Positions 4,539 to 53,100 of a stretch of DNA of 64,000 nt are shown here, piece by piece. Origin of the DNA: Eledone cirrhosa (taxonomy: Eukaryota). The notes below the pieces were generated by a model. The model did not search any database and was not told where the DNA came from. It saw only the letters and a list, made by a program, of their open reading frames with translations. The first letter of the stretch is position 1. Each line of letters begins with the position of its first letter. The position numbers and the translations under genes are program-made. Location of the stretch: NCBI GenBank assembly GCA_964016885.1, contig OZ024743.1, positions 147,746,001 through 147,810,000 on the forward strand. The letters are read 5' to 3'.

Positions 4539-4577
4539 TATGTACGTTTCGCCCGAAAAGAGCTTCTCAAGGGCATA
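4539..4577 (-). ncRNA. hammerhead-like motif, U3-A8 core variant (degenerate)
   Basis: UUGAGAA-gcuc/gggc stem-GAAA-CGUA with palindromic ACGU helix III; helix I irregular. Confidence 0.45.
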
Positions 4578-5782
4578 CAAATCTAGAGTCTGTTCAATAC
4601 AAAACCCAGAAGTGGTTTTAAGATGATTAATCACATCGAAGTTCATGTTTAAATTCAAACAGACATGGCTGTTTGCATCACAGAGCAAGGGGAGTAACTC
4701 TGACCGGTGTTTGAATAAGTGTCCCTAAATTGCTTATTATCTGTTCACATGAAGATGTTCTCCACTACTATATTATGGGTACCAATTTAATACTGCTTAG
4801 TCATGCCGGATCCAAGAGGCATAGTTGGTGTACAGATGTTTAATTATGCACACCGTCATCCGATGTGTTATTGTTTGGTGCAGGGAGACCCGGTTGATGG
4901 TGTTCAGATATCAACCCGGATCCAACCATAGAATGACTGCTGTATTCTGTGTCCGCAGTTTATCACAGATTCTGCTCTGCTGTTGATGAGATCTAGGGGT
5001 GCTGTTACGATATGGTAAAGCTCCATGACTCAGCGCTGGCACTTCCTCCTGAAGTTGTAAGGTGTTTCCCTGCTGACAATTTCCCAGTATGTGGAGAAGC
5101 TGATGTTGGAGTCGTTCAATTTTGTGATGTAGTTGGCGAGTGATGTGGAGTACCTTAGCTTCCTGTTTCTAAAAGAGTGGAGATGTGTTCAAAAATCTAG
5201 TTTTGAACGTGCCAGAGGTGGCCCCTATATAATGTTTGACACTGTTATGGATAGTTACAGTGCACCTATAGATAACATCGTCAGTCAGGCAACTTCCTCT
5301 GAGCGGACAGCTTCCCGGGTTACGACAATTGCGGCGTCCGCGGCGGTCGCTGCCGCTGCGGTGGCTTCTAGTGCCCGAGGTAAGACTATTGCTATCACTA
5401 CCTACGTTTTCATCCACACCACTGCCGCTAACTCCGTAGTTAGTACTATTATATTCTATGACGCGCGGGGTAGTGCAATTATCACTCCGCGCTCTACAGC
5501 GCCTTCTGTTGCCGCCTCGCGACCCGTACTGGTCGCCAGTGTGCTCCCCAGTTTCACAGCCGTCTTGGCGGTTGCGTCTGTTGGAGCTGCGACCAACATT
5601 GTCGAGTGCTGCTAGGGAAACGTTAAGGCTATCAGAGTTGCTGTCAAGTCTATAGGTGCAATGTAACTAGGCTTGCTCTGTGATGCAAACAGCCATGTCT
5701 GTTTGAATTTAAACATCAACTTTGATGTGGTTATCATCTTAAAATCCCTTCTGGCTTTTGCATTGAACACACTCTAGATTTG

Positions 5783-6038: not shown

Positions 6039-6143
<105 letters not shown>

Positions 6144-6444
6144 TGAGACAAAATGAAAACGAAATTTCATTTCTCACTCTTAGTATGGCACTTACTTAAA
6201 TGTAAGTATGCATGTATACGTACATACATATATGTATACAGACGTACAGTAGCATGCACATATATATATATATACACATATATATACATATGCATACAGG
6301 TACACATACATATATGCACGTATCAGTTTAGCGGCGCTTATTATAACGTCGCTTTGTTCGTTTGTAAACAAACTGAACAGCCTGAATTTATGCCATACGG
6401 TGTTAAGGCAACCACGTCACCTTTTTGTTCAACACTGACACAGG

Positions 6445-6489
6445 AACGATGTACTAGTTTCAAGCTTGTTAGCTATCATCAGCACCGTT
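6445..6489 (-). ncRNA. minimal type I hammerhead ribozyme (family A)
   Basis: aacggug CUGAUGA u agcu aaca agcu u GAAA cuag UA caucguu: helix I 7 bp, palindromic ACUAGU helix III, GUA site. Confidence 0.85.
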
Positions 6490-6562
6490 TACCCATCTGC
6501 CAGATAGTTGAACGTTCGAAAGTATATACTTTCCTTATGAAAATTAACGGCTGAGCAGCCTA

Positions 6563-6570
6563 ATTTGCAT
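6563..6570 (-). promoter_or_regulatory. octamer ATGCAAAT ~80 nt upstream of the HHR core (also 7035, 49228, 49261, 49808, 52449, 52804)
   Basis: Exact octamer at conserved spacing in two repeat families; function is inferred. Confidence 0.4.
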
Positions 6571-6916
6571 ATTGAGTGAGTTAAATCGGTCAGGCATACC
6601 GAAAACGATAAATTGAGACAAAATGAAAACGAAATTTCATTTCTCACTCTTAGTATGGCACTTACTTAAATGTAAGTATGCATGTATACGTACATACATA
6701 TATGTATACAGACGTACAGTAGCATGCACATATATATATATATATACACATATATATACATATGCATACAGGTACACATACATATATGCACGTATCAGTT
6801 TAGCGGCGCTTATTATAACGTCGCTTTGTTCGTTTGTAAACAAACTGAACAGCCTGAATTTATGCCATACGGTGTTAAGGCAACCACGTCACCTTTTTGT
6901 TCAACACTGACACAGG

Positions 6917-6961
6917 AACGATGTACTAGTTTCAAGCTTGTTAGCTATCATCAGCACCGTT
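6917..6961 (-). ncRNA. minimal type I hammerhead ribozyme (family A)
   Basis: Identical to 6445-6489, 472 bp away. Confidence 0.85.
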
Positions 6962-7144
6962 TACCCATCTGCCAGATAGTTGAACGTTCGAAAGTATATA
7001 CTTTCCTTATGAAAATTAACGGCTGAGCAGCCTAATTTGCATATTGAGTGAGTTAAATCTGTCAGGCATACCGAAAACGATGAATTGAGACAAAATGAAA
7101 ACGAAATTTCATTTCTCACTCTTAGTATGGCATTTACTTGGGTA

Positions 7145-7189
7145 AACGGTGCTGATGATAGCTAACAAGCTTGAAACTAGTACATCGTT
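7145..7189 (+). ncRNA. minimal type I hammerhead ribozyme (family A)
   Basis: CTGATGA 7152-7158, GAAA 7173-7176, predicted cleavage after 7182. Confidence 0.85.
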
Positions 7190-7351
7190 CCTGTGTCAGT
7201 GTTGAACAAAAAGGTGACGTGGTTGCCTTAACACCGTATGGCATAAATTCAGGCTGTTCAGTTTGTTTACAAACGAACAAAGCGACGTTATAATAAGCGC
7301 CGCTAAACTGATACGTGCATATATGTATGTGTACCTGTATGCATATGTATA

Positions 7352-7382
<31 letters not shown>

Positions 7383-7437
7383 GTGCATGCTACTGTACGT
7401 CTGTATACATATATGTATGTACGTATACATGCATACT

Positions 7438-7501
<64 letters not shown>

Positions 7502-22004: not shown

Positions 22005-22375
22005 TGTAGCCGTTAATATGCATAAGGAAAGTATATACTTTCAAAAGTTCAATCATCTGACAGAAAGGTATACGATGCTGAGGATAGCTAATAAGCTTGA
22101 AACTAGTGTATCATTCCTGTGTCAGTGTTGAGCAAAAAGGCCACGATGGTTGCCAAACACTGTACGGCGTAATTCGGGCTGTTTGTTTACAAACAAACCG
22201 AACATTATAATAAATGTTCGGTAAACCCATACGTGCATATATATATATGTGTACATGTATGTATATATATACATACATGTACGTCTGTATACATATATGT
22301 ATGTACGTGTATATACTTACATTTAAGTGTCAGCCGTAGTAAGAGCGAGAAATGAAATTTCGTTTCATTTTCTAT
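22005..22375 (+). mobile_element. family A repeat, solo partial copy with decayed HHR (22072-22114)
   Basis: CTGAGGA...GAAACTAGTG (GUG site, damaged helix I); same 3' end into (TA)n as at 6141. Confidence 0.85.
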
Positions 22376-48530: not shown

Positions 48531-49100
48531 TTTCTGCCCTCATGTTCGAATAATTTGATGGAACAAATATATAAGTCGTATATTTTTTCATTATAAATTT
48601 TTAAATAATGCGCACTTTCATGTACTCCTGCAAAGTAATATGCTGCTTATATCTCTCAAGTATTTACATGTTTCGTTTATATATATATATATTGTACATT
48701 TAAAAATATACGTTATGTTTATGAAATACAATTTGAAGGACCACAGAATGTTTTTCATATGCATACATATATATATTTGAATGTAATCTGAGTTTTTCTA
48801 ATATTAATAATTGTTTCTACGTTAGGTACAAGGCCAGCAATTTCCCAGTGCATTACTGGTACTTTATTTTATCGACCCCGTAAGGATGAAAGGCAAAGTT
48901 AACCTGGGCGGGATTTGAACTCAGAATGGCAAGGGCCGCAATTCTATACGTCAAAGCATGGTGTCCGACCCTCTACAAATACTGCTAATCCATTAATAAT
49001 AACATTTGTTTCGTTTGCAATTATACAAACAAGCCTCATTTTTATATCCATGTCAGTAGAATGAATCCTTCATTCTTGCTCTTGTGTTGGCATGTAAACA

Positions 49101-49150
49101 GAACTGCAGACACTAATGTTTCTGGGTATCACACTTCATCAGTACAGCTC
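49101..49150 (-). ncRNA. type I hammerhead ribozyme (family B)
   Basis: gagcugua CUGAUGA agugugauaccca GAAA cauuagu GUC ugcaguuc; 8-bp helix I, weak helix II. Confidence 0.65.
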
Positions 49151-49681
49151 ACTGTTAATCTGTCAACTGTCATAGCTAGTGAAAATATATGCTATTTTTT
49201 TAAAATATACAGTGACTGATCGGCCTGATTTGCATATTAGCAGATCCACTGATCAGCCAGATTTGCATATCAGCAGAGTGGCCAGTCAGTTGCTGTATAC
49301 GAGCGATAAATGGCCGGCTTTGCCACATTCAAATTAAAAATGTTTTCGCTTTACATGGCTGAATACAATAAATGTAATCTGAGTTTTTCGAATATTAATA
49401 ATTGTTTCTACTTTTGGCAAAAGGCCTGCAATTATCCCAGTGTAATTCTGGTACTTTATTTTATCGACCCCGTAAGGATGAAAGGCAAAGTTAACCACTG
49501 GCGGGATTTGAAATCAGATCATAAAGGGCCGTAACTCTATGCTTCAAAGCATGTCGTCTGACCCTCTACCGATACTGCCATAACATTCGATTCGTTTGCA
49601 ATTATACAAACAAGCATCATTTTTATAGCCATGTCAGTAGAATGAACCCTTCATTCTTGTTCTTGTGTTGGCATGTTAACA

Positions 49682-49731
49682 GAACTGCAGACACTAATGT
49701 TTCTGGGTATCACACTTCATCAGTACAGCTC
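49682..49731 (-). ncRNA. type I hammerhead ribozyme (family B)
   Basis: Identical motif 581 bp from the previous one. Confidence 0.65.
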
Positions 49732-50363
49732 ACTGTTCATCTGCCAACTGTCAGAGCTAGTGAAAATATATGCTATTTTCTAAAATATACAGTGATTGAT
49801 CGGTCTGATTTGCATATTAGCAGACTGGCTGATGAAAATTAGAATGTTCTTATTCAAGCCGGAGCTTTGTAGTTATGCAAGATGTGTTTCCAGACATGTG
49901 GACAACGTGAGAAGATTTCGTTTCTTGAATTTAGGCAATCGCTATTGCGTAATCTCCTTAGAATATTTATCCTTTCTTCAATACACAATCCACAAGACGG
50001 ATTGCCCCTTCTGTATGGCTTGGACTTAGTGATGGCTTTCCATTGAATGGAGTGTCCTTGAGGGACCATACGTGGATCACGAGTTTCGTGGATGATGGTC
50101 CCTCAAGGACTCAGGTATAGACTACAACAACATTTTCATTTTCTAATCAACACGAACATCTCTTCCGGACATTCGAAGTTATCTCCATTTTCATCTTTCG
50201 CACGTGAATTTGTATCGCTTTGCTGAAGTGACCGTTTCTGTGCATGAGCGTTCATACGGTTTTTCTTCCTGTTCCCTATAACCATGACCAGTCCGAGCTG
50301 AAGATCCACTAAGGAGAAACAATTGTTCTTGGTAAGATAAACTAACTGTTGTGTTACTACTTC

Positions 50364-50399
<36 letters not shown>

Positions 50400-51790: not shown

Positions 51791-52019
51791 ATTTATTTTG
51801 TTGCATGAGTTTGCTTTCTGAGATTTCTGACATTACACTTTTATTTCTGTTTATTGTGTCCAAGTTTGATTAAATAAAGATGTAGTCGACAAGTGGCCCG
51901 AGTTGATATACCTAGATGTGAATGAGATTATAATAGAAAGGCAGTCAATGTTTAACTGATAAATACTCACACGCATACACTCATTCAAAGACACACACAC
52001 ACATATATATATATATAAA

Positions 52020-52136
52020 AGGAAAAGAATGAAACGAAATTTCAATTCTCACTCTTAGTACGGCTGGTACTTAAATGTAAGTATGTATGTATACGTACAT
52101 ACATATATGTACAGTAGTATATATATATACATACAG

Positions 52137-52212
<76 letters not shown>

Positions 52213-53100
52213 GTATGGTTTTACCGAACATTTATTATAATACTCGGTTTGTTTGTAAACGAACAGCCCGAATTACGCCGTACAATGTTCAGGCAACCAT
52301 CGTCACCTTTTTGTTCAACACTGACACAGGAACGATGTACTAGTTTCAAGCTTATTAGCTATCGTCAGTATCGTATACCTTTCTTTCAGATGGTTGAACG
52401 TCTGAAAGTATATACTTTCCATATGCATATTAACGGCTGAGCAGCCTAATTTGCATATCGAATGAGTTAGTCGGCCGGGCGCACCGAAAACGAGAAATGG
52501 AAAAGAGTGAAACGAAATTTCATTTCTCACTCTTAGTACGACTGGTACTTAAATGTAAATATGTATCTATACGTACATAAATATATGTATATAGACATAC
52601 AGTAGTATGTATATATATATATATACATACATGCAAACATATATATATGTACGTATGGGTTTACCGTACATTTATTATAATGCTCGGTTTGTTTGTAAAC
52701 AAACAGCCCGAATTACGCCGTACAGTGTTCAGGCAACCATCGTCACATTTCATTCTTTTCCATTTATCGTTTTCGGTGCCCCCGGCCGACTAACTCATTT
52801 GATATGCAAATTAGGCTGCTCAGCCATTAATATGCATAAGGAAAGTATATACTTTCAGACGTTCAACCATCTGACAGAAAGGTATACGATGCTGACGATA
52901 GCTAATAAGCTTGAAACTAGTACAACGTTCCTGTGTCAGTGTTGAACAAAAAGGTGATGATGGTTGCCTGAACACTGTACGGCGTAATTCGGGCTGTTTG
53001 TAAACCCAACCGTACATATATATATATATGTGTGCATGTATGTATATATATACATACTATTTTACGTATGTATACATATATGTATGTACGTATACATACA
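52020..53100. mobile_element. family A repeat: 1.5 tandem units plus inverted partial; HHRs at 52332-52374 (minus) and 52886-52928 (plus)
   Basis: Homologous to 6141-7441; CTGACGA tagctaataagctt GAAA ctagta; inversion junction near 52746. Confidence 0.9.

What the first reader, a model, noticed from the sequence alone, without database searches (positions are those of the whole stretch)
49682..49830. Shared octamer - AT-rich palindrome - CAGATG - hammerhead module in two otherwise dissimilar repeat families
Seen: ATGCAAAT lies ~81 nt upstream of the HHR core in family A (6563, 7035, 52449, 52804) and ~85 nt upstream in family B (49228, 49808; extra copy at 49261). Between octamer and core, both have a GAAA..TATA..TTTC palindrome and TGGCAGATG (6494-6502; 49738-49746). 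Established: newt satellite 2, an HHR tandem repeat, is transcribed from an snRNA-type promoter with an octamer element. Inference: these units carry their own POU-factor-dependent promoter just upstream of the ribozyme, giving a self-contained transcribe-cleave-retropose cassette.
Basis: partly seen in the sequence, partly recalled or inferred. Interest (0 to 1): 0.75.

Follow-up and report, generated by a model that had tools for sequence, protein, structure and literature searches.

The report
Ribozyme repeats carry hybrid snRNA promoter
These are abundant short repeats holding a hammerhead (self-cutting RNA) motif, and just before it they carry DNA words and spacings that match the promoters of the animal's own small nuclear RNA genes, so each repeat likely switches on its own transcription and is likely spread by Penelope-type jumping genes.

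Summary
The octamer and the type I hammerhead are at the stated coordinates in families A and B. The 'palindrome' and 'CAGATG' are not shared conserved words: one A subfamily lacks the palindrome, and most B copies read CAGGTG. The shared module is octamer box (offset 0), TCA box (16), TATA (42-43) and a pyrimidine|A at TATA+30, followed by the ribozyme. A third family (D), unrelated outside the promoter, has the same layout; other hammerhead families lack it. The 12-nt octamer box sits at -76 to -79 in 7 of 7 promoter-bearing host Pol III loci (U6, U6atac, MRP, tRNA-Sec) and in 0 of 13 U1/U2/U5 loci. The TCA-TATA spacing and the A start match U1/U2/U5 instead, and octamer-TATA is 3-6 nt shorter than in the Pol III genes. 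Best reading: non-autonomous Penelope-type retrozymes with an internal hybrid snRNA promoter, probably Pol II, working like newt satellite 2. Transcription is untested, and 5' truncation points show no peak at the predicted start. The scan has reported this before on other DNA of the same genome, mostly as 'U6-type'.

The parts
49808..49815 (-). Octamer, core of the box TATGCAAAT(C)AG (offset 0) of the family B unit
   Evidence: matches the host Pol III upstream box, PWM score 15.2, p about 1e-5
49795..49799 (-). TCA box (TCAAT here, TCAGT in most copies), offset 16; like the U1/U2/U5 proximal element
   Evidence: (score 10.9 for this copy, 14.8 for L029; host leave-one-out range 5.1-20.5)
49766..49772 (-).
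49738..49746 (-). TGGCAGATG; predicted +1 is the A at 49742 (TATA+30, TCA+57). Inferred, not mapped
   Evidence: the last three letters are not conserved
49682..49731 (-). Type I hammerhead: stem I 49724-49731/49682-49689, core CTGATGA 49717-49723, GAAAC 49699-49703, predicted cut after GTC 49690
   Evidence: stem II is weakened in this copy (GTG for GGG)
48777..49833 (-). Whole family B insertion: 5'-truncated dimer, 3' end beside an (AT)n run; unit 436-445 nt in other copies
49101..49268 (-). Second B unit: octamers 49261 and 49228 (33-bp repeat) and hammerhead core 49142
49401..49581 (-). Separate, very abundant SINE-like repeat inserted in the B unit; a second copy at about 48807-48991
   Evidence: other copies skip about 180 nt here
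49859..50095 (-). End of a Penelope-type GIY-YIG ORF, joined about 25 nt further on to the 5' end of the B dimer
   Evidence: 81% DNA identity to the element in L194
50133..50365 (+). Inverted 3' UTR of the same Penelope-type element, with its own hammerhead (core 50298, no octamer), ending at (TA)n
6138..7445 (-). Family A insertion: 472-bp tandem (6138-7139, -) plus an inverted truncated partner (7139-7445, +), both ends in (TA)n; octamers 6563 and 7035, cores 6482, 6954, 7152
52015..53100 (.). Family A inverted pair; octamers 52449 (-) and 52804 (+), cores 52368 and 52892
22008..22371 (+). 5'-truncated family A copy that starts after the octamer; core 22078

Best explanation
Families A and B are protein-less hammerhead repeats (retrozymes) with Penelope-type insertion ends, and each unit carries an octamer box, a TCA box and a TATA word that likely form an internal snRNA-type promoter, probably read by RNA polymerase II from a predicted start 8-27 nt before the ribozyme core. 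Shown: the motifs, their fixed spacing in three families, their match to host promoters, and the insertion anatomy. Inferred cycle: (1) a POU-type factor on the octamer and SNAPc on the TCA box recruit TBP and Pol II; (2) with no 3' box, and with Pol II ignoring the T4-T7 runs, transcription runs into the next tandem unit; (3) two successive hammerheads cut out a unit-length RNA that contains the next unit's promoter and may be circularised; (4) a Penelope-type RT/GIY-YIG protein starts at a fixed site 27-37 nt upstream of the octamer in A and D (further upstream in B), inserts into (TA)n and leaves tandem, inverted and 5'-truncated copies. Putting the promoter at the 3' end of the cut RNA solves the usual loss of an upstream promoter on retroposition.
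For: The host box TATG(C/G)(A/T)AAT(T/G)AG lies at -76 to -79 in 7 of 7 promoter-bearing Pol III loci and in 0 of 13 U1/U2/U5 loci. A, B and D score 15-22 on that matrix (host leave-one-out 12.6-20.7; p<=1e-5). In an evenly spaced 1-Mb sample, 17 of 86 octamers have a TATA word at offset 42-43 and 11 have a TCA word at offset 16. Family D was found blind; chance of at least 1 such family among 18 is about 0.012, of at least 3 among 20 about 4e-7 (A and B were the discovery set). The promoter parts of A, B and D align above shuffles (0-4 of 500 reach the score in 11 of 11 between-family pairs) while their bodies mostly do not (6-483 of 500). Between subfamilies the octamer-TATA block is better kept than its flanks: D1/D2 94% against 76% spacer and 57% body; A1/A2 81% against 61-63%. 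TCA-to-TATA is 26-27 nt and TATA+30 is pyrimidine|A in A1, A2, A3, B and D1 (TATA+31 in D2), like U1/U2, which start C|A or T|A in 9 of 9 loci; all 7 Pol III loci start T|G. A fifth family (E, L198) has a U1/U2-type set without octamer: distal motif at predicted -257, proximal element score 7.1, TATA. No 3' box in A, B, D or E (best score 3.1 against host 9-23). 3' ends fall in two fixed groups per family, next to (TA)n in 29 of 58 (D), 12 of 19 (A) and 15 of 55 (B, which includes SINE breaks); 14 of 30 B loci and 13 of 30 D loci hold copies on both strands.
Against: There is no transcript evidence of any kind. The TCA box is strong only in B; in A and D its scores are negative (-1.1 to -3.9, p 0.01-0.03 after trying three offsets). 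No host gene examined has octamer and TCAGT together (0 of 21), so the hybrid has no native model. The distal motif TTACCTCCCTT of most host snRNA genes is absent within 330 nt upstream of A, B and D cores. B and D2 have CATATA rather than TATATA. 5' truncation points show no pile-up at the predicted +1: none within 3 nt among 60 (D), 18 (A) and 43 (B) ends. TATA registers were read by eye in an AT-rich genome. No autonomous element was found that uses A, B or D as its terminal repeat. Window B copies have a weakened stem II.
Confidence: 0.55

Rival explanations
1. The module is a U6-type (Pol III type 3) promoter, or serves both polymerases; transcripts mostly stop at the T-run near the unit's 3' end, and only leaky read-through carries the promoter along.
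For: The octamer box is found only in host Pol III loci (7 of 7 against 0 of 13). The first sense T>=4 run comes late: +342 in A1, +303 in A2, +214 in D. The long 3' ends of B and D fall in that T-run.
Against: Octamer-to-TATA is 42-43 nt against 46-48 in all 7 host loci. The Pol III proximal matrix does not match (p 0.08-0.36, though this matrix is weak: leave-one-out -7 to 11). The predicted start is A, not G. T6-T7 runs just before the next promoter would cut it off from the RNA, yet promoter-bearing tandem copies are common (L228: 23 cores).
Confidence: 0.22
2. The motifs are not an active promoter. They are a relic of a common ancestor, or RNA-structure or protein-binding signals of the circular RNA, and the repeats are transcribed by read-through from flanking genes.
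For: Each family has hairpin-forming words just after the octamer and around the TATA. There is no 5'-end peak at +1. Most hammerhead families in the genome lack the octamer (3 of 26 clusters have it), so it is not needed for spread.
Against: The octamer box is not palindromic, equals the host promoter word, and keeps its distance to the TATA while the distance to the ribozyme varies (80, 88, 92, 99). The TATA palindrome is lost in A2 while the TATA stays. The block is better conserved than the hammerhead itself in D1/D2 (94% against 64%).
Confidence: 0.18
3. Chance resemblance between AT-rich repeats.
For: The octamer alone is not enriched in the window; CAGATG and the palindrome are not conserved.
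Against: The same three offsets occur in three families and the 12-mer matches an independently derived host motif.
Confidence: 0.03

Closest known systems
Newt satellite 2 (Coats, Zhang and Epstein 1994; paper not held; seen only as cited in PMC2220036, and via PMC6765202)
   Same: Tandem type I hammerhead repeat of about 330 bp with an internal snRNA-type promoter read by Pol II (passages). That its elements are an octamer and a proximal element is recalled, not read here.
   Different: Here several families of an invertebrate genome carry it; a TATA word is present; the octamer box is the one the host uses on Pol III genes; nothing is tested at the bench.
Metazoan non-LTR retrozymes (Cervera and de la Pena 2020, PMC7229834, passages read; Li, Clavereau and Pollet 2026, 10.64898/2026.07.22.740005, parts 1-3 of 5 read)
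   Same: Short non-coding tandem repeats with one type I hammerhead per unit, co-occurring with Penelope-like elements.
   Different: Neither text describes an internal promoter: 0 occurrences of 'promoter', 'octamer' or 'snRNA' in Li et al.; in Cervera 2020 'promoter' occurs only as T7 promoter (supplement unreadable). Units here are 311-472 bp against about 170-400.
Penelope-like elements and their pseudo-LTRs (Craig et al. 10.1101/2021.04.23.441226; Cervera and de la Pena 2014, PMC4209133; passages read)
   Same: Partial tandems, inverted 5'-truncated partners, a tail on one end only, (TA)n targets, hammerhead with palindromic stem III; the promoter lies in the repeat and drives the downstream copy.
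   Different: No ORF; the tail is about 40-56 nt; hammerheads in the 3' UTRs of ORF-bearing elements here have no octamer.
Schistosome Sm-alpha hammerhead repeats (as described in PMC6765202; original not held)
   Same: Promoter followed by a hammerhead, so the promoter ends up at the 3' end of the cut RNA and tandem copies are needed.
   Different: Sm-alpha is reported as Pol III; here the elements are snRNA-type and upstream.

Membership tests
Non-LTR retrozyme | Type I hammerhead in each repeat unit | tested here: met
   descriptor scan 43 hits per Mb against 1 in shuffles. MFE folding recovers stems I and II but mispairs the core in A and B
Non-LTR retrozyme | Short non-coding tandem units | tested here: met
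   units A 422/472, B 436-445, D 324, E 311; no protein family assigned to the units
Non-LTR retrozyme | Self-cleavage and circular RNA in vivo | not testable with these tools
   needs RNA data or a bench assay; 7 of 43 B 5' ends lie within 113-131, around the cut at 126 (post hoc p 0.002), but D shows none there
Non-autonomous Penelope-like element | Fixed 3' ends with a one-sided tail, inverted 5'-truncated partners, (TA)n targets | tested here: met
Non-autonomous Penelope-like element | Homology to the terminal repeat of an autonomous partner | tested here: inconclusive
   none found in about 1.6 Mb of fetched DNA; one chimeric junction with a Penelope-type ORF end at window 49833
Host U6-type Pol III promoter | TATG(C/G)(A/T)AAT(T/G)AG box upstream of TATA | tested here: met
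Host U6-type Pol III promoter | Octamer-to-TATA spacing 46-48 nt | tested here: not met
   42-43 nt in A, B, D
Host U6-type Pol III promoter | T|G start 30 nt after TATA | tested here: not met
   pyrimidine|A at that place
Host U1/U2/U5-type Pol II promoter | TCAGT proximal element at -55 to -58 | tested here: inconclusive
   met in B (10.9-14.8) and E (7.1); weak in A and D
Host U1/U2/U5-type Pol II promoter | TATA word about 25-27 nt after the TCA box, pyrimidine|A start | tested here: met
Host U1/U2/U5-type Pol II promoter | Distal motif TTACCTCCCTT near -260 | tested here: not met
   absent in A, B, D; present in E; also not found in the U5, MRP, U6atac and tRNA-Sec loci checked
Host U1/U2/U5-type Pol II promoter | 3' box after the RNA | tested here: not met
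   its absence is what read-through needs
snRNA-type promoter (either polymerase) | Transcription start inside the unit that depends on the motifs | not testable with these tools
   needs CAGE/RACE and mutant reporters

The most novel reading that the evidence does not exclude
Animal retrozymes are parasites of the snRNA transcription machinery as a class. Unrelated families in one genome have assembled different SNAPc promoters, including a Pol III-gene octamer box grafted onto Pol II geometry that no host gene examined uses. The promoter is placed just before the hammerhead so that it travels at the 3' end of the cut RNA, and Pol II reads through the oligo-T runs. This would explain the high expression of retrozyme circles across tissues and make newt satellite 2 the rule rather than an oddity.
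Probability: 0.3. Interest if true: 0.72.

Novelty: new variant of a known kind. Interest (0 to 1): 0.52.

Why it matters
How animal retrozymes are transcribed so strongly, and how a promoter upstream of the RNA survives retroposition, is left open in the two retrozyme papers read here; only single cases (newt, schistosome) are cited. This genome offers several families with defined motifs and a predicted start base, so the question can be tested directly. The comparison also yields a first outline of this animal's snRNA promoters, with a Pol III-specific octamer box at -77 and a Pol II-specific TCAGT at -57, which may help in building guide-RNA expression cassettes. My one search for a published description listed nothing on it by title or abstract start.

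Tried and rejected
Rfam scans of the window found no hammerhead. A genome search with family A DNA returned nothing because very common words are skipped, so A counts come from sampled loci. The Rfam Hammerhead_1 search returned one family only (C); 60 of its 74 hits were fetched, none showed a positioned octamer and 5 had scattered one-mismatch words. RNA: no RNA holder listed; the three unlabelled runs were laid once, cover repeat and flank alike, and as contigs cannot show starts. A metagenome pattern scan gave 118 stretches, 10 passing a loose hammerhead filter, with the octamer present by construction; this cannot be told from chance. 5'-end mapping gave no peak at the predicted start. 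'TGGCAG as a conserved initiator' was rejected because A2 places it 8 nt closer to the TATA. 'Palindrome as a binding site' was rejected. A 3'-box-like word in B scored at background. A T-run count over B copies had a faulty pattern and is not used. Four look-ups for the newt and schistosome originals failed.

Full report
1. Observation. The window lies in a 3.0-Gb animal genome. The seven octamers cited are there. A pattern scan finds nine hammerhead-like cores: six of family A, two of family B and one at 50298. The octamer starts 88 nt before the core in the four A copies that reach that far, and 92-93 nt before it in B. The finding's stretch 49682-49830 reads, on the minus strand: octamer 49815-49808, TCAAT 49799-49795, CATATAT 49772-49766, TGGCAGATG 49746-49738, hammerhead 49731-49682. 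Rfam does not score these ribozymes, but the type I descriptor finds them, with 43 hits in a 1-Mb sample against 1 in shuffled sequence. The octamer word alone is not over-represented in the window (10 against 6.6).

In the 30 B loci, 24 of 36 sites read TGGCAGGTG and 6 read TGGCAGATG. In family A, CAGATG is in 6 of 41 cores and the palindrome in 12 of 41; 23 of the 41 come from one array. Subfamily A2 has lost the right arm of the palindrome but keeps the TATA.

2. What the repeats are. Family B gave 2005 candidate places, 40 scored; family D gave 1946; both are lower bounds. Units are 422 or 472 bp (A), 436-445 (B) and 324 (D). Copies come as partial tandems with inverted, 5'-truncated partners (both strands in 14 of 30 B loci and 13 of 30 D loci). 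3' ends fall in two groups per family, about 40-56 nt apart, often next to (TA)n, while 5' ends are scattered. This is the anatomy described for Penelope-like elements (10.1101/2021.04.23.441226, passages). Penelope-type RT and GIY-YIG fragments are common in the sample (Pfam GIY-YIG in 2 of 12 proteins scanned). In the window, the 5' end of the B dimer (49833) is joined to the end of a Penelope-type ORF, whose inverted 3' UTR ends at (TA)n at 50365. No remainder of that UTR lies left of the dimer. This fits a template switch by one enzyme, but a later insertion with deletion is not excluded. The repeats therefore file as non-LTR retrozymes (PMC7229834, passages; 10.64898/2026.07.22.740005, parts 1-3 of 5).

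3. Host promoters. I fetched U1, U2, U5, U6, U6atac, RNase MRP, RNase P and tRNA-Sec loci. Seven distinct Pol III loci (three U6, one U6atac, MRP, two tRNA-Sec) have TATG(C/G)(A/T)AAT(T/G)AG with the octamer at -76 to -79, TATA at -30/-31 and a T|G start. Thirteen distinct U1/U2/U5 loci have none of this box, and carry (T/C)CA(G/A)T at -55 to -58 with a TATA-like word near -30 in most. Rows dropped before counting: tandem duplicates; 10 dispersed U6 copies and 7 of 8 U6atac copies with no promoter-like upstream, taken as retrocopies; and U6 array copies with a SINE in the promoter. That selection was by eye and inflates '7 of 7', but MRP (single hit) and both top tRNA-Sec hits needed no selection. 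RNase P has TCAGT and no octamer.

4. The module across families. In 100 evenly spaced 10-kb stretches, 17 of 86 octamers have a TATA word at offset 42 or 43, and 11 have a TCA word at offset 16. Seventeen have a core-like pattern downstream, of which 3 are false matches in another repeat; the random-position rate is 86 in 20000. A third family, D, emerged with the octamer 99 nt before its core. A looser scan of all loci gave 26 clusters, some spurious; the box is positioned upstream in 3 (A, B, D). Family C lacks it in 60 loci. A, B and D align in the promoter part but hardly in the body, and the promoter part is better kept between subfamilies than its flanks. Whether the three share a remote ancestor or converged cannot be told; either way the block looks selected.

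5. Which polymerase. The octamer box is the Pol III word, but the geometry is that of Pol II. Octamer-to-TATA is 42-43 nt, not 46-48. TCA-to-TATA is 26-27, as in U1/U2/U5. TATA+30 is pyrimidine|A, as in U1/U2. B matches the Pol II proximal matrix within the host range, A and D only weakly, and none matches the Pol III one. In insects such spacing is tightly conserved and the element's sequence helps set polymerase choice (PMC1761439, passages). T4-T7 runs lie just before the next promoter and there is no 3' box, which suits Pol II read-through. Family E (L198, 311-bp array) has a U1/U2-like set without octamer, including the distal motif at predicted -257; this rests on one locus.

6. What speaks against. 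No RNA data were available. The hybrid has no counterpart among 21 host loci. The distal motif is missing from A, B and D.

7. Known and new. Newt satellite 2 is cited as having an snRNA promoter read by Pol II (PMC2220036; PMC6765202; original not held). Searches listed no paper on such promoters in invertebrate retrozymes, judged from listings and the passages read; bioRxiv supplements are closed and the supplement of PMC7229834 could not be read, and either may bear on this. Earlier notes of this scan on the same genome reached a similar reading, several as 'U6-type'; they are not independent support. What this report adds is the spacing and start-base case for a hybrid with Pol II geometry, the tRNA-Sec and U5 controls, family E, and the chimeric junction. 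Verdict: real feature, new variant of a known kind, interest 0.52.

Noticed in passing
window 48777-50365: The B dimer is fused at its 5' end to the end of a Penelope-type GIY-YIG ORF, with the inverted 3' UTR of that element on the other side; possibly a single insertion with a template switch that names the partner family (like L194).
   Followed up: partly
L198:8430-10000: Family E: 311-bp hammerhead tandem array with an inverted partner in (TA)n, carrying the host snRNA distal motif right after the cut site, a U5-like CCAGT and a TATA, but no octamer. L188 (minus strand, cluster 19) shares its upstream words with a different hammerhead.
   Followed up: partly
L216, minus strand, downstream of the GIY-YIG ORF; similar at window about 4570-4930 (-): The 3' UTR of an ORF-bearing Penelope-type element has TTACCTCCCTTG 120 nt and TATATAA about 33 nt before a U3-A8 hammerhead variant, hinting at snRNA-like signals in autonomous elements too.
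   Followed up: no
L043, L044, L045, L245, L253, L269, L270 against L001-L003, L063-L068, L143, L255-L261: Host snRNA promoter code: octamer box at -77 on Pol III genes; TCAGT at -57 and a TAATTAAAT-like word near -88 on Pol II genes; TATA near -30 on both; shared distal TTACCTCCCTT near -260 in many.
   Followed up: yes
L254:1400-1500: The RNase P RNA gene has the Pol II-type upstream set (TCAGT, two distal motifs) and no octamer box, unlike MRP; it may be Pol II-transcribed here.
   Followed up: no
L049, L050, L053 (U6 array): The abundant SINE-like repeat has inserted between the octamer box and the TATA in some U6 array units, moving the box to -270.
   Followed up: no
window 49401-49581 and 48807-48991: The same SINE-like repeat inserts repeatedly at one site of the B unit and is carried along inside B copies (15 of 55 B alignment ends fall at offset 213).
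   Followed up: partly
L249:1257-1500: A U6atac retrocopy sits directly against an inverted family B copy.
   Followed up: no
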